From Eledone cirrhosa (Eukaryota): a DNA stretch of 64,000 bases. The notes beneath the pieces are model-generated. The model did no database searches and was not told where the DNA came from. It saw only the letters and a program-made list of their open reading frames with translations. Shown one piece after another: positions 1 through 40,699 of the stretch. The position numbers and the translations under genes are program-made. The stretch lies in the NCBI GenBank assembly GCA_964016885.1, contig OZ024746.1, positions 71,920,001-71,984,000 of the forward strand, written 5' to 3'. Positions within the stretch are counted from its first letter, which is position 1. The number at the start of each line of letters is the position of its first letter.

Positions 1-670
1 CACGAGTCTGTTGAAGAGAGCCCAAAACGATCACTGCACAGAAGACAATCCTTGGGCCTCTCCACAGAAACTTGCAGAAAGGTTGTCAAAAAGAATCTTA
101 AGTAGTACCTCTACGGAATATAGACGAAACAAAGGCTTACTGTAGCTGATAAGAGCAAGAGAAAGATTATGGCTGAGAAAATGCTGGAGAAGATGGAACA
201 CAACGCAAATTTTCTGAATCTGCTGTAGACATCTGATGAAAACCACTTTCACTCAAAGGGGAAGATTAACTCTAAGAACAATGTGTTCTGAGGGTCAGAA
301 AAACCTACTGAAGGAGGTATGTAACCTCTCCACTCTGCTAAATATACCGTCTGGGTTGTCATTTCTGAGAGAGGTTTGATTGGCTCTTTCTTCTTCAAAG
401 AAAATGGTATCAATGCTACAATCACAAAGGAACGCTATGTATATGTCCTGGAAGACTTCACAAAGGAGCTACAGACTATGTACCCATCTCTAATGTATAA
501 GTTCTGGTTCCAGCAAGACGGAGCAAGCCCTCTCACATCCAATGAGTTGTGAGAATGGCTGAAATATAACTTTGGAAATCCTGTGATCAGTTTGAAGACT
601 GATTTTGAGTGGACACCACACAGCCCTGATTTAAGCTCCCCGGATTTCTTTCTTTGGGGTTATCTGAAGA
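1..670 (+). mobile_element. Decayed Tc1/mariner transposase, DD41D (rosa) type, catalytic domain
   Basis: Manual translation gives TSDE.HFH, YTVWVVIS, WFQQDGA and WTPHSPDLSSPDFFLWGYLK. There are 41 residues between the second and third Asp. In-frame stops are present. Confidence 0.85.
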
Positions 671-1322: not shown

Positions 1323-1451
1323 GTAGAACTTCTATTTAAATTGTTGGGATACAACAAGCAAATTTTTTATAACTGGTATAAAGCACTCAACAAATAATTG
1401 GAGTAAAAATACAATATTAACAAATGGAAACTATATTTATAAAACCATATT

Positions 1452-1516
1452 TATTTCATTATACATATTTCAAGGACACCAAGTTAAATTATGGTGTGCT
1501 TTCATCAGATAAAATA
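1452..1516 (-). ncRNA. Minimal type-I hammerhead ribozyme (mirror copy)
   Basis: Reverse complement of 1660-1724. Confidence 0.8.
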
Positions 1517-1659
1517 TAATATAGAGCAGTTTTATAAATAAATATTGACATACCCTTAAAGAATGCAACCATTACTGTTACTATCCGGGAGCTTCCAACA
1601 GTAATGGTTGCATTCTTTAAGGGTATGTCAATATTTATTTATAAAACTGCTCTATATTA

Positions 1660-1724
1660 TATTTTATCTGATGAAAGCACACCATAATTTAACTTGGTGT
1701 CCTTGAAATATGTATAATGAAATA
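1660..1724 (+). ncRNA. Minimal type-I hammerhead ribozyme
   Basis: Stem I tattttat/atgaaata; CTGATGA 1668-1674; stem II aagcacacca/tggtgtcctt; GAAA 1705-1708; short near-palindromic stem III tatgta; predicted cleavage after UA at 1716. Confidence 0.8.
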
Positions 1725-1943
1725 AATATGGTTTTATAAATATAGTTTCCATTTGTTGATATCGTTTTCAATACCACCTCCACCACCATCATCAACATGA
1801 TTCTGGCACCCCCTCCCTCTCCTACCCTCTCCATTATCATCACCACCACCACTACCACCGCCACAATCACCACCACCACTACCACCAGAATCATGCGGTG
1901 CCCCAGCATGGCCTCAGCCGGATGGCTGAAACAGGTAAAAGAG

Positions 1944-2045
<102 letters not shown>

Positions 2046-2429
2046 GCAAACAGGCATATAGATTGACAGTCATACAAACATACACACATACAGAACTACT
2101 GGTAAAATAACGGACATACAGCCATGCTGACAGACTGACAACCATATAGACAAACAAATTGACAGACCGACTGACAGACATACTGACAAACACATGACAG
2201 GCAGACAGCTAAACAGACAAGCATACAAAACACAACAGACAAGCAGAGAGATACAAACAGAGAGAGAGGGAGAGGGAGAGAGTTAAACTGAGAGATACAA
2301 CGACAGCAAAGAGGGAAAGATGAGAGTGGCGACGGAAGCTAGGCTATCATCCATTCACAATTCTGTGGTGAATGAAAGGAAGGGGGGAGTGGGGAGTGAG
2401 AGAATGAGGGAAGGGGTGGTGTGCGATGG

Positions 2430-3040
2430 TGGGAGGACATGGTAATGGTGGTGGTGGTGGTGGTGGTGGTGGTGGTTGTGGTGGTGGTAGGGTCTGTGTG
2501 GGGAGGTGCTGCTGCTGTGGGGGGCAAAGGGGAGGGCATGATCATGATCGTGACGACGGTGGTGGTGGCGGTGCTGTGATGGTGTTGGTGGTGGGGAAAG
2601 GGGAGCGGGCTTGATCATGATGATGGTGGTGGTGGTGGTGGTGGTGGTGGTGGTGGTGGTGGTGGAGAGGGTTGGAGGGGAGGACAGAATTATGATGATG
2701 ATGGTGACGGTAGTGGTGGTGGTGGTGGTGGTGGTGGTGATGGTGGTGGCAGTGGAGAGGGTAGGAGGAGGAGGACAGAATGATGATGATGGTGGTGGCG
2801 CTGGTGGTGGTGGTGGTGGTGATGGTGGTGGTGGTAGTGGTGGTCGTGATGGTAGTGGAGAGGGTAGGAGGGGAGGGACAGAATCATGTTGATGGTGGTG
2901 GCGCTGGTGGTGGTAGTGGTGGTGGTAGTGGTGGTGGTGATTGTGGTGGTGGTGGTAGTGGTGGTGGTGGTGATAGTGGAGAGGGTAGGAGGGGGGAGGG
3001 GGTGCCAGAATCATGTTGATGATGGTGGTGGGGGTGGTAT
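2430..3040. repeat. (GGT)n-rich low-complexity tract with a recurring gagagggtaggagg..cagaat unit
   Basis: Direct inspection; about 4 degenerate units of about 100-120 bp. A related inverted copy lies at 1770-1895. Confidence 0.85.
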
Positions 3041-3212
3041 TGAAAACGCTTGTTGCAAAAGTGATTAATTCTAAACAGTTCTACTTCCGAAGTGTTAAGA
3101 GGCGGAATTAGAGGTAAGGAAATCCAGAGGAGAGACTGTTGGTCCATATCAGACGACCTCCGTGGGAAACTGGCGCTAGTACTAGATTTGACTTTTTACT
3201 AAATAATGACAC

Positions 3213-6200
3213 ATACTGTCACAGAACCACTACCGCCAACAACAACATCAACAACATCAACAAGAGTAAGTAACGCCACACACTGTCACAGCACTACTAC
3301 CGCCAACAACAACATCAACAACATCAACAAGAGTAAGTAACGCCACACACTGTCACAGCACTACTACCACCAACAACAACATCAACAAGAGTAAGTAACG
3401 CCACACACTGTCACAGCACTACTACCACCAACAACAACATCAACAACATCAACAAGAGTAAGTAACGCCACACACTGTCACAGAACTACTACCACCAACA
3501 ACAACATCAACAACATCAACAAGAGTAAGTAACGCCACACACTGTCACAGCACTACTACCACCAACAACAACATCAACAACATCAACAAGAGTAAGTAAC
3601 GCCACACACTGTCACAGAACTACTACCACCAACAACAACATCAACAACATCAACAAGAGTAAGTAACGCCACACACTGTCACAGCACTACTACCACCAAC
3701 AACAACATCAACAACATCAACAAGAGTAAGTAACGCCACACACTGTCACAGCACTACTACCACCAACAACAACATCAACAACATCAACAAGAGTAAGTAA
3801 CGCCACACACTGTCACAGCACTACTACCACCAACAACAACATCAACAACATCAACAAGAGTAAGTAACGCCACACACTGTCACAGCACTACTACCACCAA
3901 CAACAACATCAACAACATCAACAAGAGTAAGTAACGCCACACACTGTCACAGAACCACTACCGCCAACAACAACATCAACAACATCAACAAGAGTAAGTA
4001 ACGCCACACACTGTCACAGCACTACTACCACCAACAACAACAACAGTAAGTAACGCCACACACTGTCACAGAACCACTACCGCCAACAACAACATCAACA
4101 ACATCAACAAGAGTAAGTAACGCCACACACTGTCACAGCACTACTACCAACAACAACAACAACAGTAAGTAACGCCACACACTGTCACAGCACTACTACC
4201 ACCAACAACAACATCAACAACATCAACAACAGTAAGTAACGCCACACACTGTCACAGCACTACTACCACCAACAACAACAACATCAACAAGAGTAAGTAA
4301 CGCCACACACTGTCACAGCACTACTACCACCAACAACAACAACATCAACAAGAGTAAGTAACGCCACACACTGTCACAGCACTACTACCAACAACAACAA
4401 CAACAGTAAGTAACGCCACACACTGTCACAGCACTACTACCGCCAACAACAACATCAACAACATCAACAAGAGTAAGTAACGCCACACACTGTCACAGCA
4501 CTACTACCACCAACAACAACATCAACAACATCAACAAGAGTAAGTAACGCCACACACTGTCACAGCACTACTACCACCAACAACAACATCAACAACATCA
4601 ACAAGAGTAAGTAACGCCACACACTGTCACAGCACTACTACCAACAACAACAACAACAGTAAGTAACGCCACACACTGTCACAGCACTACTACCGCCAAC
4701 AACAACATCAACAACATCAACAAGAGTAAGTAACGCCACACACTGTCACAGCACTACTACCACCAACAACAACATCAACAACATCAACAAGAGTAAGTAA
4801 CGCCACACACTGTCACAGCACTACTACCACCAACAACAACATCAACAAGAGTAAGTAACGCCACACACTGTCACAGCACTACTACCACCAACAACAACAT
4901 CAACAACATCAACAAGAGTAAGTAACGCCACACACTGTCACAGAACTACTACCACCAACAACAACATCAACAACATCAACAAGAGTAAGTAACGCCACAC
5001 ACTGTCACAGAACCACTACCACCAACAACAACATCAACAACATCAACAAGAGTAAGTAACGCCACACACTGTCACAGAACCACTACCACCAACAACAACA
5101 TCAACAACATCAACAAGAGTAAGTAACGCCACACACTGTCACAGCACTACTACCACCAACAACAACATCAACAACATCAACAAGAGTAAGTAACGCCACA
5201 CACTGTCACAGAACCACTACCACCAACAACAACATCAACAACATCAACAAGAGTAAGTAACGCCACACACTGTCACAGCACTACTACCACCAACAACAAC
5301 ATCAACAAGAGTAAGTAACGCCACACACTGTCACAGCACTACTACCACCAACAACAACATCAACAACATCAACAAGAGTAAGTAACGCCACACACTGTCA
5401 CAGAACCACTACCACCAACAACAACATCAACAACATCAACAAGAGTAAGTAACGCCACACACTGTCACAGCACTACTACCACCAACAACAACATCAACAA
5501 GAGTAAGTAACGCCACACACTGTCACAGCACTACTACCACCAACAACAACATCAACAACATCAACAAGAGTAAGTAACGCCACACACTGTCACAGAACTA
5601 CTACCACCAACAACAACATCAACAACATCAACAAGAGTAAGTAACGCCACACACTGTCACAGAACCACTACCACCAACAACAACATCAACAACATCAACA
5701 AGAGTAAGTAACGCCACACACTGTCACAGCACTACTACCACCAACAACAACATCAACAACATCAACAAGAATAAGTAACGCCACACACTGTCACAGAACC
5801 ACTACCACCAACAACAACATCAACAACATCAACAAGAGTAAGTAACGCCACACACTGTCACAGCACTACTACCACCAACAACAACATCAACAACATCAAC
5901 AAGAATAAGTAACGCCACACACTGTCACAGAACCACTACCACCAACAACAACATCAACAACATCAACAAGAGTAAGTAACGCCACACACTGTCACAGCAC
6001 TACTACCACCAACAACAACATCAACAACATCAACAAGAGTAAGTAACGCCACACACTGTCACAGCACTACTACCACCAACAACAACATCAACAACATCAA
6101 CAAGAGTAAGTAACGCCACACACTGTCACAGCACTACTACCACCAACAACAACATCAACAACATCAACAAGAGTAAGTAACGCCACACACTGTCACAGCA

Positions 6201-8690
6201 CTACTACCACCAACAACAACATCAACAACATCAACAAGAGTAAGTAACGCCACACACTGTCACAGAACCACTACCACCAACAACAACATCAACAACATCA
6301 ACAAGAGTAAGTAACGCCACACACTGTCACAGCACTACTACCACCAACAACAACATCAACAAGAGTAAGTAACGCCACACACTGTCACAGCACTACTACC
6401 ACCAACAACAACATCAACAACATCAACAAGAGTAAGTAACGCCACACACTGTCACAGAACCACTACCACCAACAACAACATCAACAACATCAACAAGAGT
6501 AAGTAACGCCACACACTGTCACAGCACTACTACCACCAACAACAACATCAACAACATCAACAAGAGTAAGTAACGCCACACACTGTCACAGAACCACTAC
6601 CACCAACAACAACATCAACAACATCAACAAGAGTAAGTAACGCCACACACTGTCACAGCACTACTACCACCAACAACAACATCAACAAGAGTAAGTAACG
6701 CCACACACTGTCACAGCACTACTACCACCAACAACAACATCAACAACATCAACAAGAGTAAGTAACGCCACACACTGTCACAGAACCACTACCACCAACA
6801 ACAACATCAACAACATCAACAAGAGTAAGTAACGCCACACACTGTCACAGCACTACTACCACCAACAACAACATCAACAACATCAACAAGAGTAAGTAAC
6901 GCCACACACTGTCACAGAACCACTACCACCAACAACAACATCAACAACATCAACAAGAGTAAGTAACGCCACACACTGTCACAGCACTACTACCACCAAC
7001 AAAAACATCAACAACATCAACAAGAGTAAGTAACGCCACACACTGTCACAGAACCACTACCACCAACAACAACATCAACAACATCAACAAGAGTAAGTAA
7101 CGCCACACACTGTCACAGCACTACTACCACCAACAACAACATCAACAACATCAACAACAGTAAGTAACGCCACACACTGTCACAGCACTACTACCACCAA
7201 CAACAACATCAACAACATCAACAAGAGTAAGTAACGCCACACACTGTCACAGCACTACTACCACCAACAACAACATCAACAACATCAACAAGAGTAAGTA
7301 ACGCCACACACTGTCACAGCACTACTACCACCAACAACAACATCAACAACAACAACAACAGTAAGTAACGCCACACACTGTCACAGCACTACTACCACCA
7401 ACAACAACAACAACAACAGTAAGTAACGCCACACACTGTCACAGCACTACTACCACCAACAACAACATCAACAACATCAACAAGAGTAAGTAACGCCACA
7501 CACTGTCACAGCACTACTACCACCAACAACAACATCAACAACATCAACAAGAGTAAGTAACGCCACACACTGTCACAGCACTACTACCACCAACAACAAC
7601 ATCAACAACATCAACAAGAGTAAGTAACGCCACACACTGTCACAGCACTACTACCACCAACAACAACATCAACAACATCAACAAGAGTAAGTAACGCCAC
7701 ACACTGTCACAGCACTACTACCACCAACAACAACATCAACAACATCAACAAGAGTAAGTAACGCCACACACTGTCATAGCACTACTACCACCAACAACAA
7801 CATCAACAACATCAACAAGAGTAAGTAACGCCACACACTGTCACAGCACTACTACCACCAACAACAACATCAACAACATCAACAAGAGTAAGTAACGCCA
7901 CACACTGTCACAGCACTACTACCACCAACAACAACATCAACAACATCAACAAGAGTAAGTAACGCCACACACTGTCACAGCACTACTACCAACAACAACA
8001 ACATCAACAACATCAACAAGAGTAAGTAACGCCACACACTGTCACAGCACTACTACCAACAACAACAACATCAACAACATCAACAAGAGTAAGTAACGCC
8101 ACACACTGTCACAGCACTACTACCACCAACAACAACATCAACAACATCAACAAGAGTAAGTAACGCCACACACTGTCACAGAACCACTACCACCAATAAC
8201 AACATCAACAACATCAACAAGAGTAAGTAACGCCACACACTGTCATAGCACTACTACCAACAACAACAACATCAACAACATCAACAAGAGTAAGTAACGC
8301 CACACACTGTCACAGCACTACTACCACCAACAACAACATCAACAACAACAACAACAGTAAGTAACGCCACACACTGTCACAGCACTACTACCGCCAACAA
8401 CATCAACAACAGTAAGTAACGCCACACACTGTCACAGAACCACTACCAACAACAACAACATCAACAACATCAACAAGAGTAAGAAACGCCACACACTGTC
8501 ACAGCACTACTACCGCCAACAACAACATCAACAACATCAACAACAGTAAGTAATACCACACTATCATAGCACTACTACCACCAACAACAACATTAACAGC
8601 AACAGCAACAACAAATAACACCACACACTATCATAGCACTACTAGCACCAAAAACAACATTAACAGCAACAACAACAACAACAACAACAA
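3213..8690. repeat. Minisatellite array, 67-bp unit (58-bp and other variants), about 80 copies
   Basis: Unit cacactgtcacagcactactaccaccaacaacaacatcaacaacatcaacaagagtaagtaacgcca; gagtaag recurs at 3264 and 3331. Units decay at the right edge. Confidence 0.97.
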
Positions 8691-8694
8691 ATAA

Positions 8695-8842
8695 CTGTTT
8701 CCACTTTTGGCACAAGGCCAGCAATTATCCCAGTACATTACTGGTACTTTATTTTATCGACCCTGTAAGGATGAAAGGCAAAGTTAACCTCGGCAGGATT
8801 TGAACTCAGACCGTAAAGGGGCGTAACTATGCTGGAAAGCAT
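8695..8842 (-). mobile_element. tRNA-derived SINE (abundant family) inserted in the decayed edge of the minisatellite
   Basis: Reverse complement of the consensus gagttcaaatcc.gccgaggttaactttgcctttcatccttac..ggtcgataaaataaagtaccag. Confidence 0.85.
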
Positions 8843-9142
8843 ACACATAGTCATAGCACCACTACCACCAACACTAATGAAATTAACAGTAGCAACAACA
8901 CCAACAGCAACAACACCAAATAACGACACCCCGTCATAGCACCACTACCACCAACAATAAGAATATCAACAGTAATAATAACAGCAATAACGGTAACATC
9001 AACATCTAATAACAAAACACACTGTCACAGCACCACTGTTATCACAAACAACAGCAAAACAGCAGCAACATCAAATAACACGTTACATACGATTGGTAAA
9101 GTAGAAATAACGTATGATGGGGCCGTACATCTCTTACTTAGG

Positions 9143-9580
9143 TCAATCTTCTTCTTGTGCCATCACTGTGTCAGTGTTTGACGAACCATGACGTTCCACG
9201 TTGTTCGATCTCGGTGGAGATCCCATACTTCTGCGGCTTGTCAAAAAAGGACCTCCTTTGACGACCTCTAGCACGCTTCCCAGGAATTTTTCCGCTAATG
9301 GAAAGGTTTTCCAGCATGCTTTTCCTGATGACATGTCCTAGGAACATTAGTTGTTTCTTTTTAATAGTGAGCAGTATCTCACGTACCATCCACACTCTCT
9401 TCAAAACCTCTTCATTATTTATTTAGTCGGCATACGAGATCCTGAGTACTCTGCAATAGAAATACATCTCAGTAGACTCGACGTATCTCCGTGTCGGATT
9501 CGTGAAAGTCCACGATTCGTAGCAGTAAAGAGGCGTTGACCAAACAAATGTCTTCAGTAAACGAATTTTGATTCCGATTC
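9143..9580 (-). mobile_element. RTE-clade LINE 3' fragment
   Basis: LLKTFVWS, KKKQLMFLGHVIRK and GKIPGKRARGRQR motifs; frameshifted. Confidence 0.8.
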
Positions 9581-10470
9581 CGAATCAATAGTAAAACCTA
9601 AAAGCCTTAAAATCCACCTTAGAACCCATCATAAGAAGGCACTGCACCAGCGGTACCCAAACTGAGACCTGCAGACCCGTAGGAGTCCGCAAAGATAATA
9701 CTGGATCTTCGCGAGCTAAGTTCACATGTTCAAGTACTTTGTTGAAAACATAATGTATGCACACTATTCTTCTGTAAGTGACAAGAAACGCTGAGGTGTG
9801 CTAGACAGCCGAAGGTCTTCAGAGAAGAACCCCTCTCTCAAGCAAGCTCTTAACTTCTGGGGCCGAAACACTTGCTGCTTGAAGGGGGTGGGGGACTCTG
9901 AAAACCTCCTGTTGTCTAACTATTCTGAGAGTTTCTTACCACATAGAGAAGATCGAATACCCATTTCTCTCTTTTGGTTATAACAATCTGGAAGGGGAGT
10001 AATTGTAGCAAGGAGTCCTTAGTAGAGAAAGAGTTAGGAACCACTTGGGGGAGTGCCATGTGTGATCATATTCGCTGTTTGAGATGTGTAGCAGCCTTCG
10101 GAAGCACGTGTGATCAAACGCCAACATTCTTTGATGAATGTTCACTGCAAGTGTCAAGCTTTCGTCCCCATACAGAAGCATTAAAGTCACCAGTGACTTG
10201 TAGGGCTGATTAATGTGCATTTTCATTCAGGGATGAAATTTTATGGTTTTTTAGTGCAATATACGCTTCGCCTTTATCTAAATATTATTTTTCATCGCAT
10301 ACTCAAGCAGAGATGACATCGTCATTTCAAATTACATTTTGCTATCAATTATAGAGATTCATTTCTGTTGCTGCCTACTGAAGATTGTGGTGGTTAGCTC
10401 CCTTTATGCAGTATGAAACTTGAAGTTATGGACAGTTAAGTTTAACCAATAAGCATTATGATTTAGTTAT

Positions 10471-16520: not shown

Positions 16521-16525
<5 letters not shown>

Positions 16526-16720
16526 AAAAAGTATGACCCCGACGGCAGAGCTCAAGCCGTTTCGACGGCTATTTCTGGACGGTCCAGAAATAGCCGTCGA
16601 AACGGCTTGAGCTCTGCCGTCGGGGTCATACTTTTTCCTATTTCCCACTCTACTACCCTAAGTATTGAGTACTCTGGTGCGTTATGGTCTATCTGGTTCC
16701 TTACCACAATCCCTTTGTTA
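16521..16720 (+). mobile_element. Fold-back half-hammerhead element within (TA)n
   Basis: Perfect 60-bp arms at 16521-16580 and 16582-16641; GAAA(16599)-cggc..gccg-TC-ggggtc; about 80-bp tail; (TA)n on both sides. Confidence 0.85.
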
Positions 16721-19700
16721 TATATATATATATATGTGGGGGGGTGTATGTGTGTGTGTGATTGTGTGCCGGTGTATGTGTTTATATATGTGTGCATATA
16801 TATACACACACACAGACAAGCACATATATATATACATATATATATATACAAACACGCATATATATACATATATATATGTGTGTGTGTGTGTACATATATA
16901 TATAGGTAGGTAGAATTGCTTTTGATATAAACCTGTATTTGTGTGTGCTACAGAATGTGTGAATATGTACGTGTGTGTGTAGGTGTATGTGTGTATGTGA
17001 GTCTCGGTTGTGTGTGTGAGTGTATGTGATGTCAATTTTGCTTTTCATCTTTTCGCTGTTGATAAAATAAAGTACCAATGAAGTACTTGGATCTATATAT
17101 TCTTTCTTTTCTCCCCAAATTGCTGGACTTGTGTCATAATTAGAAACAGTTTAGGCCGATTGATTAACAAAATCGATAGAGTATTGGGCAAAATGCTTTG
17201 TGGTATTTGCCTCGGTTCTTTATATTTGAATGGCGCACAAAGGGTTAATGTTTATTGGCAAGAAGTGGCAACTGGGCTTGGCTTGCCTCGCTTATATAAA
17301 AGTAACATCTATTTCTATATATATCAGCTTCTACTACAACGTAATATAATTGTTTCTACTTTTGGCGCAAGGCCAGCAATTACCCAGTACATTACTGGTA
17401 CTTTATTTTATAGACCCCGTAAGAAGGAAAGACAAAGTTAACCTCGACGGGATTTGAACTCAAACCGTAAAGGGACGTAACTATGCTGGAAAGCATGAAC
17501 TACAACGGTACGCGATGGAGCCCACCCACAGCCCCGGTGGACAGAATGGAGAAGGAGTTTCCCCGGAGGACGGCAAGGGAGACTGTGTTCAATTCTCGCC
17601 CAGGCCAACCCTGTCTTACAACCTTCCAGGTGCTGATACATAAAGTACTAGAGAAGTACTGAGGCCGTATAATCGAGATTCCATTGCACCTTAGTTAAAC
17701 CCCTTTATTATCTCGCAAAGGTTAGCTTTGCCTTTCATACGTACGGGGGCGATAAATAAAGTACCAGTAACGCACTGGGGTCGATTTAATCGACTTTCAC
17801 TTTCCGCCTTGTGCCTATAGCAGAAACCTTTATTGTTGATGTTTTTGTTCCTATTTATCTTCTTCTAGCTGTTTTTGTTGTTACAGTAATTGTCGTTGTT
17901 GTTGTTATTGTTGTTGTTGCTGTTGACGTTGTTGTTGTTGTAGTTGTTTACTTTACAAAAGGTGAGATATCCATTTATTATTTACCCGGAACTTTGACTG
18001 AAGGGGAGATGTGACAATTTCTAGCGACGCCCTAAAAACAACAACGTGTGGAATAGAGAGAGGAGGTGTGCACGCGTGTGTATGTGTGTGTGCGCGCGTG
18101 TGGGAGGGTGGTGCGTCTGTGTGTGTGCACATATGTATGTTTTGCTAAATTTCCCGTTTGGAACGGAAGCAACCAATATTTATATTTATTCGGCACTTTG
18201 CCTTCTGATTTCGAATCACGCATATGTCAACGTTGCCATTTATCATTCGAGAAAAAAAGTACCAGTCCTGGCTGGTGGATTGGTAGAATCGTTAGAGCGT
18301 CGGAAAGAATGTCTTGCGTTCTGAGTTCAAATTCCACTGTGGTCTATTTAAGTGGTTGACTTAATCCGTCATCCGGTTTAACACCACCACTTGGCCATTG
18401 GGTATCTTTAGTGAAATCCACTACATTACAATCAATTAGATCAAGTCTCCTGATAAGACAGCTGATAAGACACCTGATAAGAGTTTTGAACATTGCTCCT
18501 TGTCTTTGCCGGTTAAAAACAATACTAGGGTGTGATGTAAGGCAGATTTCACAATTATTTCTATTTAAAAGATACACCCAAGCTGCGTCGTCTAACAGTG
18601 AACTTGCTCTCATATGTCAGTCGGTGGCTGTAAGCTCACACTAGAGAACTTTATGCGAAATCGACGCCAGTACTCAGTACCAGAATAACATAAGGTTGAA
18701 GTGGGCTGCAGTCTAGGACCTCATAATTTAGTACGCACTTTCGCGTTTTAAATATATATTTAAATATAACTTCCCGCGGGGCGGCCAGCGTGTGGGGCCA
18801 CATTTTCTTATAATAGTGAATGATAGGGAGAGCGAGAGGGACGGAAGCAGTGACAATGGGAATTTTATTCCATTGTGTTCAGACATATGTATGTATAAAC
18901 GAAAAAAATATTAAGTTAAATACTGTCATATATGAAAAGTTGGATTAGAAAAGGCTTTGATATTATATAATTTAGTTTCCCATTGCTGTTAAGAACAAAA
19001 TACTGACGTTTGCTTTCTATCCTTCCGGTAAAAGAAATATACAAGAGTTCTTCCTATCCTTACAATTACAAAAGATCTTACGCTTAATCAACAAAACGCT
19101 CACTATGAATCGTGCTATTAAATTATAATTGTTGTTCAACATGCTTTGTAGATTATAAATACAGCCGTTTAAATTCTGAGTTCAAATCCTGCCGAGGTTA
19201 GCTTTGCCTTTCATCCTTACGAGGTCGATAAAATAAAGCACCAGTAACGTACTGGAGTCGATTTAATCGACTTTCCTTTCCCTCCAAATTAGTGACTTTG
19301 TGCCTATACTAGACATCATTATACTTGTGGATTGGCAGTATCGGTAGACGGTTTGCCGCCATGCTTTCCAGCATAGTTGCGTCCCTTTATGATCTGAGTT
19401 CAAATCTCGCCGAGGTTGACTTTGCCTTTCATCCTTACGGGGTCGATAAAATAAAGTACCAGTAATGCACTGGGTTATTGCTGGCCTTGTGCCTAAAGTA
19501 GAAACAATTATATTATAACTGTTGTTCAACATGCTTTGTGGCTTATAATTATGGCCGTTTAAGTTCTGAGTTCAAATCCCGCCGAGGTTAGCTTTGCCTT
19601 TCATCCTTGCGAGGTCGATAAAATAAAGTACCAGTAACGCACTGGAATCGATTTAATCGACTTTTCCTTCCTCCCAAATTGTTGGCTGTGTGCCTAAATC

Positions 19701-24008: not shown

Positions 24009-24667
<659 letters not shown>

Positions 24668-26587: not shown

Positions 26588-26776
26588 GCACACATATATA
26601 TATTATATTCACATACACACACACACACACTCATATATGTGTGTGTGTACGAAACGTAACCGGAAAACCAAAAAGAAACAATGCAGTACAATGAAGATAT
26701 TAATTTAATGCTTGATATAGAACGAAGTGCCTTAACGTTTCCGAAGTTGGTCTTCCATATATACATATATATATAT

Positions 26777-26968
26777 AACGAAGGAAATGTGGTAAGGAAC
26801 CAGGTGGACCATAACGCACCAAAGTACTCAATACTTAGGGTAGTAGAGTGGGTAATAGGAACGAGTAGGACCTCGACGGCTGAGCTCAAGCCGTTTCGAC
26901 GGCTAATTCAGTCCAGAATTAGCCGTCGAAACGGCTAGAGCTCAGCCGTCGGGGTCCTACTCGTTCCT
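26777..26968 (-). mobile_element. Fold-back half-hammerhead element within (TA)n
   Basis: Homologous to 16521-16720 in the opposite orientation. Confidence 0.85.
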
Positions 26969-27031
26969 ATATATATATATATGTGTTAAAATGTAAGTAT
27001 TAATAAAATAGATGTTCTTTTGATCAATTAC

Positions 27032-27084
27032 ATTTTATTATACATATTTCGGATGTACAACAGTACGTCCTCATCAGACAAAAT
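27032..27084 (-). ncRNA. Minimal type-I hammerhead ribozyme
   Basis: attttgt-CTGATGA-ggacgtac-tgtt-gtacatcc-GAAA-tatgta-TA-ataaaat. Confidence 0.85.
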
Positions 27085-27199
27085 ATAATGATACATGACA
27101 TACCCTGAGATGTTAAATAGTTAAGATTTAATCAAGGTAGTCTACCTTGATTAAATCTTAACCATTTAACATCTCAGGGTATGTCATGTATCATTATAG

Positions 27200-27240
27200 T
27201 TTGTCTGATGAGGACGTACATCCGAAATATGTATAATAAA
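27200..27240 (+). ncRNA. Minimal type-I hammerhead ribozyme
   Basis: tttgt-CTGATGA-gga-cgtaca-tcc-GAAA-tatgta-TA-ataaa. Confidence 0.82.
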
Positions 27241-28684
27241 ATGTAATTGATCAAAAGAACATCTATTTTATTAATACTTACATTTTAATATTAATAACTC
27301 CTGAAAATTATTTCTCGTTGAGTGCTTCCAATCATCTCGTTGAGTGCTTTGACATAATCATTGAATATTGTTTAACAATTTTAATATTTTAAGGATCGAC
27401 CGACTTTCGTCAAATCGAACCGAGGAAACAATGTTTCCGTTGGTCTTTCCAATTGCTAATACTCTCTATCGGTCGCAACTCCAGGTAGAAGGAGCAACGT
27501 GAAATAAAGTGTCTTGCTCAAGGACATAACCCAACGCCTGGTCCAGGAATCGAACTCACAACCTCAATGTAGGATAACTAGTATACTACAGAGCCGTTAT
27601 ATATATATAAATAGAGAGAGAGAGTTCGGATCTAGCTGTCGAAACGGCCGGAGCACAGCCGTCGGGGTCCTGACTCTTTTCCTATTACCCACTCTAAGTA
27701 TTGTGTACTCTGGTGAGTTATGGTCCACCTGGTTTCTTTGTTATATATTATTTTTTATCATTTATTTTGTTTTGACCCGTTTAGCTTGATTTGGTTTTTG
27801 GCTTGGGTGGTTAATGCCTTCTTGACCACCTTTTCAGTTTTGTATGGCTTCTTAACACATTGTTTAGCTCTGGTTTTTAACTATTGAGCACTTTGCCAGT
27901 ATCATTTCTGATTTTTGCGTTTCGCTTCGCTTTTCCTACTGCGATTCTCGCTGAATCTTTTGTTTCTACTTTTGGCACAAGGCCAGCATTATCTCAGTGC
28001 ATTACTGGTACTTCATTTTATCGACCCCGGTAGGATGAAAGGCAAAGTTAACCTCGGCGGGATTCGAACTCAGAATGGCAAGGGCCGTAACTCTATGCGT
28101 CAAAGCATGGCGTCCGACCCTCTACCGATAATGGTTTCTTATATAGGCACAAGGCCACCAACTTTGGGGGGATGGGGAATGTCGATTACATCGACCCAGT
28201 GCGTGACTGGTACTTTATCGACCACGTAAGGATGAAAGGCCAAGTTAACCTCTGTGGGATTAACTATGCCTTTCATCCTTACGGGGTCGATAAAATAAAG
28301 CAACAGTAATGTACTGGGGTCAATTTAATCGGCTTTCCCCACCCCCCAAAAAAATTATTGGCCTTTCAAACAAGAAAGAATTCAACTGAGTTGTCCGCTA
28401 CCAGCGATAAAATTCGAAAAGGAGAATTATCACGTGATTAGCGTCCTACAAAGGTGGACAATGGCAAGTGAAAAGGCTGCTAAATATAGCAGTCCGGTTC
28501 GGCCAAATTCTTTACTAGACCTTAAGGGAGTAATTAACAAACATATTGAAGATATATACATATAGAGACCGCTGGAGAGAACTCGTCCATGGATCTCGGG
28601 AATTTTACCCACCTTAGATAGATAGATACATATATACACAAGTATTGTACTTTGAATAATGGATTCTTTATATATGTAACAACA

Positions 28685-34960: not shown

Positions 34961-35140
34961 TGAGAAAGTATGACCCCAATGGCAGAGCTCAAGCCGTTTC
35001 GACGGCTATTTAGTCCAGAAATAGCCGTCGAAACAGCTTGAGCTCTGCCGTCGGGGTCATACTTTCTCCTATTACTCACTCTACTACCCTAAGTATTGAG
35101 TACTCTGGTGCATCTGGTTCCTTACCACAACTCCTCTGTT
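34961..35140 (+). mobile_element. Fold-back half-hammerhead element within (TA)n
   Basis: Homologous to 16521-16720. Confidence 0.85.
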
Positions 35141-35679
35141 ATATATATATATATACATATATACATAAATCTTGTTAGAAGAGAAAACAGACATTAAATG
35201 ATGATATATACAAATGTATATATATAATTGTTTCTATTTTAGGCACAAGGCCAGCAATTATCCAGTACATTACTGGTACTTTATTTTATCGACCCCGTAA
35301 GGATGAAAGGCAAAGTTAACCTCGGCAGGATTTGAACTCAGATCGTAAAGGGACGTAACTATGCTGGAAAGCATGTCCGACCCTCTACCGATACTACCAA
35401 TTCACCGCCCTTATGTGTAATCCTCATCCTCATCATGTATGTACACGTGTGTGTGTATGCATTGCGCATGTCAATGTGTATGGTGTTATGAACAGAACAC
35501 ACAAATGTTGGCAACACCATAAATATTTATTATGTCTCTCAGCAATGTAGAATTGATACAAGCAACTACTATCACACACTATCTCACTCCACTAACACCC
35601 TATATGTGAGTGTGTGTTTGCATATATACATTCAACCATGTGTATATAATGTGTGTGTTACTATATATATATGAACAAT

Positions 35680-35845
35680 TCAGAACCCTGGCAGCTGATC
35701 TCCAGCCGTTTCAACAGCTAGCTGTTGAAACGGCCAACACTCAGCTGTTGGGGTCCCAAATTTTTCATATACCCACTCTACTTCCCCAAGTATCGAGTAC
35801 ACTGGTAAGTAATGTTTTAACTGGTTTTTGTCACCTCCATTCTGA
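35680..35845 (+). mobile_element. Diverged fold-back half-hammerhead element
   Basis: Hairpin centred on cagctagctg; tail nearly identical to 1071-1160. Confidence 0.7.
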
Positions 35846-39253: not shown

Positions 39254-40699
39254 TCATCATCATTTTACGTCCGCTTTTCCATGCTTGCACGGGTGGGACG
39301 GGAACTGATTCTGGCATGATTTCTACAGCTGGATGCCCTTCCTAACACCAACCTCATTTACAGTGAGTGCTGGGTGCTTTTTTGCCGTGGCACCTCCACG
39401 ACCACTTTGCAGTGGAATGATAGAGACCCCAGTCCCTATCATCTCATTTCTACAGCTGAGTAAACTGGAGCAATGTGAAATAAAGTCTCTTGCTCAAGGA
39501 AACAACAAATCACCGGTCTGAGAATTGAACTCACAACCTTTCGATTGCAAGTCCAATGCTCTAACCACTAAGCCATATGCCTCCATATATGTATATAGTT
39601 CTGGTGTCACAAAACAACACCACCCATACACCCTAAGGTAGTTTGCAATAAGAAGAGCATCATGCTGTAGAAACCATGCCAAAAAAGGGCCAAGATGATT
39701 CTTCAGTTGTGTCGAGGGTATCCAACTGTAGAAAATCTGTATAACAAAGTATCAGGAGAAGAAGCTCCCTGGTGCTGGTGTCATGATAAAATGCACTCTG
39801 TTAAGTGCAGAAATACATTTAAGCAAAATATGGCCCCCAACCAATCTGAACACTTTATAGAGTGCAGGAACATATGTAAGCAAGATACAGTTCCCCAACA
39901 ATCTGAGAGATTAGTAGCTCTGCTTGAGTACTGACTCCATCTGTAACAACCTGCTTGACCCTTGCTAGCAATGAAAACAAGTATTAAATGAGGATGATGA
40001 TATATATCATTACCTTCATCGTTTAAGTTCCATTCTTCCATGCTAACATGTGTTGGACGTGTTATCAAGTCAGTACTTAATCAGAGCTACAGAGCTCTCA
40101 GACAGGCAGAAAGCCCACATCTCACTTATATATGTTCCAGCACTTTACAGAGTGCACTGGCTGCATTTTATCATCATTGTTATCACCCTTTTCAATACAT
40201 ACATGCATGGATTAGACAGGTTGTCATGTTCTGAGGCTAGACAAGTCAGGTGACCGCATTTATCTCATGCATTTCATTTTGAGGCATACCCTTGCTAGCA
40301 AGGGAAGCAGACATTAAATCGATAATGATGATGCTGATGGTTTCTAATGGTAACCATTTAACAGAGTGTACTTGGATCTAATTGTGCCAGCATTACCACA
40401 TTACAGTGTGGATTGGGAGCATTTTATGGCACCAACACTACTACTTTACAAAATGAGCTGGGTACATTTTTTATGCCACCAACAATAACCCATCACAACA
40501 CTAGGGAGATAGTGTTGTAACAGCATACATGATTTACCATTCATGTCACATTGTTTACCATTTCGTCCCACTCATGTGAGAAGGGGAGTCTTCTGTACTC
40601 AACACACATATATATATGAATATACACACATTCATACCAAATCCAAAGGGACCATAGCTTCTGCAGTTGTTATTGTTAAGTCTTCAGTTTAACACTCAC

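What the first reader, a model, noticed from the sequence alone, without database searches (positions are those of the whole stretch)
26984..27290. Second, divergent double-hammerhead palindrome shows covariation with the first
The architecture matches 1419-1757 but the sequence is largely different. What is conserved is CTGATGA, GAAATATGTATAAT and an upstream gacataccct. Stem II is entirely different yet still paired (ggacgtac/gtacatcc versus aagcacacca/tggtgtcctt). The only large indel between the two arms shortens stem II and keeps it paired. This pattern supports conservation of RNA structure rather than a chance motif.
Basis: partly seen in the sequence, partly recalled or inferred. Interest (0 to 1): 0.8.

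Follow-up and report, generated by a model that had tools for sequence, protein, structure and literature searches.

The report
Mirror-image stump of Penelope retrotransposon
The palindrome is real: it is two back-to-back end pieces of a common Penelope-type jumping gene, each carrying a hammerhead-ribozyme motif whose base pairing is preserved between element families; this copy is likely a dead insertion, not a working double ribozyme.

Summary
Observation confirmed. 26986-27140(-) and 27142-27288(+) form a near-perfect inverted repeat with a type I hammerhead motif pointing outward on each arm. They are two 5'-truncated 3' ends (pLTRs) of a Penelope-like retroelement with Hydra-clade motifs, joined head-to-head; the right arm carries the known PLE 'tail' to about 27387. 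The same repeat follows an RT+GIY-YIG ORF in 8 of 10 ORF-selected loci; 1,451 exact copies of the intact core exist. The 1419-1757 palindrome is a sister family (ORFs 53-59% identical). Within the family, cores decay like flanks (5/312 vs 33/2201). The 8-nt indel is a GTAC-GTAC slippage seen in 16 copies, not selection. One strand carries one sense ribozyme, buried in the hairpin, so this is no double hammerhead. Extras: 80,656 such motifs genome-wide, and twin RCUC...GAGYRCUU stem-loops just 3' of the two preferred insertion ends. This scan noted the same architecture in other animal genomes.

The parts
26986..27140 (-). Short inverted arm: 5'-truncated pLTR of the family-B Penelope-like element, ending at the first preferred 3' end (about 55 nt past the predicted cleavage site), no tail
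27141..27141 (.). 1-nt centre of the head-to-head junction; both arms truncated 63 nt 5' of the core
27142..27291 (+). Long arm, pLTR part
27292..27387 (+). PLE 'tail' (sequence between pLTR and ORF start in full-length copies); here with a private duplication of the GTTGAGTGCTT word
27027..27089 (-). Intact type I hammerhead motif: helix I 12 bp, core 27077-27071, helix II 3 bp + C·A + 4 bp, GAAA 27050-27047, UAUGUA, U16.1/A17 at 27040/27039; predicted cut between 27039 and 27038
27190..27250 (+). Damaged hammerhead motif: core 27205-27211, helix II cut to 3 bp by the 8-nt deletion, G·A mismatch in helix I; predicted cut between 27235 and 27236
27216..27219 (+). Single GTAC left by deletion between two GTAC direct repeats
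27176..27185 (+). AGGGTATGTC (mirror copy 27097-27106): conserved upstream word containing GTAYGT, splice-donor-like, untested
27297..27327 (+). Predicted stem-loop 1 (ACUC ... GAGUGCUU) 6 nt 3' of the first preferred insertion end
26968..26982 (.). (TA)n target run at the left junction
1326..1768 (.). First palindrome (family A, sister family): arms 1408-1579 and 1597-1768, tail on the - side to about 1326, cores at 1508(-) and 1668(+)

Best explanation
The palindrome is two shortened copies of the end repeat of a Penelope-like retrotransposon joined head-to-head beside a TA run, each carrying the element's hammerhead motif, and it likely arose in one retrotransposition event and is likely inert. 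Shown: the repeat lies about 1.5 kb behind an RT+GIY-YIG ORF; copies end at two fixed positions; pairs are head-to-head; helices covary between families and decay neutrally within one. Inferred: the element's protein nicks a (TA)n target and reverse-transcribes an uncleaved pLTR-ORF-pLTR (read-through) RNA from internal start sites, one arm from site 1 (no tail) and the other from site 2 (tail); both cDNAs stopped about 63 nt past the core and were joined. The hammerhead likely works only in source-element transcripts, as a dimer through the self-complementary A-UAURUA-U helix III and/or with protein help, which is where selection kept the pairing. The 8-nt loss is a later slippage.
For: L037 runs without a break from ORF end through the 3' UTR into the repeat. 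Family-B repeat downstream of 8 of 10 ORF-selected family-B loci, sister repeats downstream of 2 of 2 ORFs at about 70% and of 6 of 8 at about 58% identity; full pLTR-ORF-pLTR units L079, L085, L089, L090 and family-A unit L125. ORFs show SDKT, Q(M/L)DI, LYRDD, CNCRxxxxC, VY..Y(I/V)G, as in published Hydra elements. 17 of 18 close pairs among the first 100 listed copies are head-to-head, 0 tail-to-tail, starts 93-3326 nt apart. 3' ends bimodal: 37 of 91 at +56 and 33 of 91 at +164. Covariation; neutral decay; 56 arm-only vs 9 shared variants in 23 two-armed insertions. Published: inverted 5'-truncated copy plus tail, HHRs in pLTRs including pairs on opposite strands 100-700 bp apart, internal RT initiation at two sites defining the tail.
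Against: No Rfam hammerhead family matched, at gathering score or E<=10. Pfam gave no RT or GIY-YIG hit for the 4+1 ORF pieces scanned; RT/EN identity rests on motifs and on likeness to published Hydra proteins read in a supplement, with no tree. The predicted dimer helix III is weak (-2.2 kcal/mol), and helix I had probability about 0 in 150-250 nt transcripts starting at the centre. Only 1 of 15 family-A loci extended showed the direct pLTR-ORF-pLTR unit. No cleavage, expression or RT data.
Confidence: 0.92

Rival explanations
1. The palindrome is a locus-level functional RNA: a conserved double ribozyme or hairpin RNA kept by host selection.
For: Very stable hairpin; two similar palindromes in one window; core words identical.
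Against: Over a thousand dispersed copies with arm spacing from 85 to 3465 nt; core mutates like flanks; the ribozyme folds are buried in the hairpin; the right arm has lost most of helix II.
Confidence: 0.02
2. A separate non-autonomous foldback element (MITE- or retrozyme-like) that moves as a fixed palindromic unit.
For: Many copies are short palindromes; 10 of 23 two-armed insertions in hand have core-to-core spacing of 85-137 nt (this set is biased by the query).
Against: Junction sequences differ between copies and spacings form a continuum to 3.4 kb; the arms are unequal (tail on one); no tandem monomers as in retrozymes; the sequence is the pLTR of an ORF-bearing element.
Confidence: 0.04
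3. The hammerhead motif is retained in these elements for a role other than self-cleavage (protein binding, promoter or splice signal).
For: Weak helix III; min-HHRs of PLEs cleave poorly in vitro; HHR mutants did not affect insertion in vitro and cleavage needed protein; genomic ends lie 56 and about 160 nt from the cut, not at it.
Against: All 12 core positions are kept in 9 of 9 ORF-linked 3' pLTRs printed from families 53-94% identical (rows were those in which a motif had been found, and L086, L087, L091 and L078 gave no intact motif); a 40%-identical family appears to keep a compensated U3-A8 core.
Confidence: 0.2

Closest known systems
Hydra-clade Penelope-like elements (Craig et al. 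2021, PMC8557442; includes Hydra-1_Obim)
   Same: Single ORF with C-terminal GIY-YIG, DKT motif, CxCX5C linker, (TA)n insertion, type I HHR in the pLTR, inverted 5'-truncated copies.
   Different: Units here are about 4.0-4.3 kb with a 1.5-kb 3' UTR (published: generally <3 kb); HHR has UAURUA in helix III and a helix II broken by a C·C/C·A mismatch, unlike the listed Hydra HHRs; tail about 90-100 nt (published for PLEs: 30-40).
Head-to-head inverted pLTR plus tail insertions of EN+ PLEs (Arkhipova et al. 2013, PMC3846280)
   Same: Inverted truncated pLTR joined at the 5' end, palindrome at the junction, tail on one end only.
   Different: Here both arms are cut down to the pLTR so no ORF remains; no target-site duplication is discernible.
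Minimal type I hammerheads of metazoan PLEs (Cervera and De la Pena 2014, PMC4209133)
   Same: Type I topology, core, long helix II, short palindromic helix III, family-wise covariation, pairs on opposite strands.
   Different: No extra nucleotide between 9 and 10.1; longer helix III palindrome (8 nt with A15.1 and U16.1); U-A at 15.2-16.2; AUA triplet; G10.1-C11.1 often A-U; 80,656 motifs vs about 2,000-9,000 reported there.
Non-LTR retrozymes (PMC7229834; bioRxiv 10.64898/2026.07.22.740005)
   Same: Type I HHR repeats related to PLE pLTRs.
   Different: Retrozymes are same-sense tandem repeats; this is an inverted pair.

Membership tests
Type I hammerhead ribozyme | Core CUGANGA, GAAA, UH | tested here: met
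   Both arms; cleavage triplet AUA
Type I hammerhead ribozyme | Helices I and II supported by covariation | tested here: met
   6 of 8 and 7 of 7 pairs with two-sided change over 16 chosen family representatives
Type I hammerhead ribozyme | Helix III (short or formed in a dimer) | tested here: inconclusive
   A-UAURUA-U is self-complementary and the R keeps pairing, but these letters were fixed by the search pattern; duplex only -2.2 kcal/mol
Type I hammerhead ribozyme | Match to a curated Rfam hammerhead model | tested here: not met
   none at gathering score or E<=10; so not filed under an Rfam family
Type I hammerhead ribozyme | Site-specific self-cleavage | not testable with these tools
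   needs an assay
EN+ Penelope-like element | Single ORF with RT and GIY-YIG flanked by direct pLTRs | tested here: met
   L079, L085, L089, L090, L125; domains called from motifs, Pfam silent
EN+ Penelope-like element | Inverted 5'-truncated copy and one-sided tail | tested here: met
EN+ Penelope-like element | Intron retention | not testable with these tools
   no RNA run listed; donor-like GTAYGT noted
Hydra clade | DKT in place of DKG | tested here: met
   SDKT in 7 of 8 ORF translations; the eighth starts after it
Hydra clade | CxCX5C linker, C-terminal EN | tested here: met
   CNC..C..C..Y(I/V)G pattern in 5 of 8 translations; of the others one is 5'-part only, one ends just after the linker, one has the third Cys changed
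Hydra clade | CCHH motif absent | tested here: met
   one Cys only between VY and YIG, by inspection; same layout as the published alignment
Hydra clade | (TA)n insertion | tested here: met
   most copies run into TA repeats; at this locus the left end only
Hydra clade | Monophyly with reference Hydra RTs | not tested
   no tree with reference sequences was built
Non-LTR retrozyme | Same-sense tandem repeats each with an HHR | tested here: not met
   17 of 18 close pairs inverted; the one direct pair is 4 kb apart

The most novel reading that the evidence does not exclude
The PLE tail is set by a duplicated RNA signal: two RCUC...GAGYRCUU stem-loops, each 4-6 nt 3' of one of the two preferred insertion ends and kept across families only 40% identical in protein, are the sites where the telomerase-related RT docks and starts copying internally, one start per arm; and the invariant C·C/C·A mismatch in helix II is a tertiary or protein contact of a distinct hammerhead subtype present in about 80,000 copies in this genome.
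Probability: 0.45. Interest if true: 0.55.

Novelty: new member of a known kind. Interest (0 to 1): 0.3.

Why it matters
As a locus it is ordinary: one of thousands of truncated insertions, and a caution that covariation between repeat families says nothing about selection on a copy. The family set is still useful. It gives a deep natural alignment of PLE hammerheads (about 27 motifs per Mb), a conserved helix II mismatch, and a precise, mutable candidate for the cis signal that fixes the two internal RT start sites, which is an open step of PLE retrotransposition. A young sister family with many intact ORFs offers protein for such an assay.

Tried and rejected
Rfam scans: no hammerhead; only hairpin miRNA models, which any long palindrome attracts. 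Pfam on 5 ORF pieces and 3 homologues: only a sub-threshold RVT_1 hit in P0072. First within-family test suggested a conserved core (p 0.04-0.09), but the flank counts were inflated by misaligned element ends and by an insertion in L098; redone with flanks limited to -66..-13 and +51..+80 the difference vanished. z-scores of single arms are weak (+0.8, -1.2, -2.4), so folding energy alone does not support the motif. Expression: no RNA holder listed, no reads laid. Lunse et al. on dimer cleavage was not held; known only through a review's passage. Place look-up in earlier findings was empty. Considered and dropped: indel as compensatory change; palindrome as intramolecular double hammerhead; MITE; gene conversion keeping arms alike (56 arm-only vs 9 shared variants). 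L034's 704-aa and L074's 501-aa frames are unrelated neighbours.

Full report
OBSERVATION. The arms are 26986-27140 (-) and 27142-27288 (+): 147 aligned columns, 2 mismatches, one 8-nt gap, 1-nt centre. The + strand folds as one hairpin, -215.1 kcal/mol, z -34. Each arm carries a type I hammerhead motif pointing away from the centre: helix I, CUGAUGA, helix II, GAAA, UAUGUA, UA, helix I. The register with A-UAUGUA-U as helix III gives a 12-bp helix I on the left arm and a predicted cut after AUA, between 27039/27038 (-) and 27235/27236 (+). Rfam has no hammerhead match at gathering score or E<=10.

IT IS A REPEAT. The window lies in a 3.0-Gb genome. The right arm gave 1,020 candidates, 40 scored; the first palindrome's arm 1,095. 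The intact family-B core-to-core word has 1,451 exact copies, control 0. The general pattern CTGANGA-N10-40-GAAATATRTATA has 80,656 matches against 193 for the reversed control. For scale, papers report about 2,000-9,000 minimal motifs per genome (PMC4209133, parts 1-2 of 4 read) and up to 120,000 retrozymes in the axolotl (PMC7229834, passages). The host is probably a cephalopod (inference: microsatellite-rich genome, best named protein hit from Argonauta hians at 39%).

IT IS THE END OF A PENELOPE-LIKE ELEMENT. In L037 an ORF end, about 1.5 kb of 3' UTR and the repeat run without a break, and that stretch is collinear with the upstream DNA of other copies. Of 20 loci picked by ORF alone, 8 of 10 family-B ORFs have the repeat downstream in the same sense (one only in part), as do 2 of 2 ORFs about 70% identical (sister repeat) and 6 of 8 about 58% identical (repeat like the first palindrome); L079, L085, L089 and L090 show pLTR-ORF-pLTR. 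The first palindrome's own family gave one such unit, L125, among 15 loci extended. Family A and B ORFs are 53-59% identical, so the two palindromes are sister families, not copies of one locus. The ORFs show SDKT, Q(M/L)DI, LYRDD, CNCRxxxxC and VY..Y(I/V)G. Craig et al. define the Hydra clade by DKT, a CxCX5C linker, no CCHH, (TA)n insertion and HHRs (bioRxiv passages; PMC8557442 supplement passages, which list Hydra-1_Obim with the same motifs). Pfam did not recognise the ORFs and no tree was built, so the clade call rests on motifs. Unit length (about 4.0-4.3 kb) exceeds the published '<3 kb'.

WHY A PALINDROME. Among the first 100 of 1,451 listed copies, 18 neighbours lie within 5 kb: 17 head-to-head, 1 direct, 0 tail-to-tail, 93-3326 nt apart for the inverted ones. 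3' ends fall in two classes: family B 37 of 91 at +56 and 33 of 91 at +164 from the cut; family A 24 of 63 at +46..51 and 32 of 63 at +144 (BLAST ends run a few letters into TA repeats). At this locus the left arm stops at the first end and the right arm runs on to about 27387. In full-length copies that extension is the sequence between pLTR and ORF start. This is the published form: inverted 5'-truncated copy plus one-sided tail (PMC3846280 passages), with min-HHR pairs on opposite strands 100-700 bp apart. Frangieh et al. showed in vitro that RT starts at two internal sites bounding the tail, that HHR mutants do not block insertion, and that cleavage needs the protein (PMC11167929, parts 1-2 of 4 read).

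COVARIATION: WHERE IT IS AND IS NOT. 153 distinct motifs from 182 loci and the window fell into 39 clusters; helix II pairs 1-3 and 5-6 and helix I pairs 1-5 stay paired while changing type, and position 4 of helix II is unpaired in 39 of 39 clusters (C·C 27, C·A 7, others 5). On an alignment of 16 representatives that I chose, 93% of cells pair (shuffled 80.5, slid 33-52), 13 of 17 pairs change on both sides, 0 of 500 shuffles reach this (relatedness inflates such counts, and the core and helix III letters were fixed by the search pattern). Within family B, 30 copies found by the upstream UTR alone, 26 after dropping second arms, give core 5/312, helix I 8/621, helix II 9/520, flank 33/2201 substitutions; core vs flank p 0.81. 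An earlier version of this test was spoiled by misaligned ends. In 23 two-armed insertions 56 variants are arm-only and 9 shared. So selection acted on source elements; inserted copies, this one included, decay neutrally.

THE INDEL. The gap removes TGTTGTAC between two GTAC words. It stands in 16 exact copies, 5 tailed and 11 untailed; in the 4 with a recognisable partner arm within 1.5 kb the partner is intact. That is recurrent slippage, and because the word is repeated on both sides of the stem the remainder pairs by construction. It costs the fold: helices I+II score -2.6 kcal/mol on the right arm against -12.5 on the left.

NO DOUBLE HAMMERHEAD HERE. Dimeric folding needs two same-sense motifs. 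A transcript through this locus has one sense motif, and its helices have probability about 0 inside the hairpin; even from the centre helix I is not favoured. Tandem source elements do supply two same-sense motifs.

A LEAD ON THE TAIL. In six read-through templates (families B, B2, A, two A-like, and a family 38-42% identical in protein) each of the two ends is followed by RCUC...GAGYRCUU: ACUC/GAGU after the first end, GCUC/GAGC after the second; 10 of 12 sites match fully, both exceptions in L079, and the stem is in the local minimum-energy fold at 8 of 12 (-3 to -8 kcal/mol). The stem starts about 4-6 nt 3' of the end. These are about three independent lineages and weak stems, so this is a hypothesis: the RT docks on each stem and starts just 5' of it, using TA-like letters to pair with the target. 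Searches (listings only) showed no paper on octopus hammerheads or on such twin signals; a repeat annotation of Octopus vulgaris does not mention ribozymes (PMC13282606, passages); supplementary figures not seen may bear on this. The retrozyme preprint was read in part 1 of 5.

EARLIER NOTES. Four notes from other genomes describe similar fold-back PLE stumps; they came after my reading was set and were not used as support.

VERDICT. Real feature; new families of a known kind. Interest 0.3.

Noticed in passing
window 26772-26970, 16521-16724, 27633-27738, 34967-35145, 35719-35826; L183-L185: 3' ends of another, young Hydra-like family (784-aa open frame, many near-identical intact copies, 3.5-kb tandem arrays); three of the five are small head-to-head palindromes, one directly left of the finding.
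   Followed up: partly
L183 5206-5302: That family's pLTR has no CUGANGA but, by inspection, a candidate hammerhead with U3-A8 core (UUGAGAA), 5-bp helix I, bulged helix II and a 6-bp helix III with GUC triplet, so possibly monomer-competent; pattern has 2,094 matches, control 0. U3-A8 cores are known.
   Followed up: partly
window 24195-24330 (-): Third hammerhead family (CTGC/GCAG helix I, same C·C mismatch), sitting between 145-bp inverted repeats 24009-24153 and 24451-24595 of another element.
   Followed up: partly
window 27176-27185 and related loci: GTAYGT, splice-donor-like, lies within 70 nt upstream of 114 of 153 motifs; CAG|G sites precede the ATG in L079 and L089. If spliced, the ribozyme would lie in a 5' UTR intron. 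No control computed.
   Followed up: partly
window 27143-27181: A predicted hairpin (UACCUUGA ... UCAGGGUA) begins exactly at the truncation point of both arms; several other copies are truncated near it, but that set is biased by the query.
   Followed up: no
L085 oriented 7927-9863: Five same-sense hammerhead motifs about 485 nt apart (CTAG helix III): a tandem retrozyme-like array.
   Followed up: no
window 39518-39575 (-): tRNA-like match, 34.8 bits, partial; probably a SINE head.
   Followed up: no
window 3100 onward: Long minisatellite with 67-nt period and strong strand skew.
   Followed up: no
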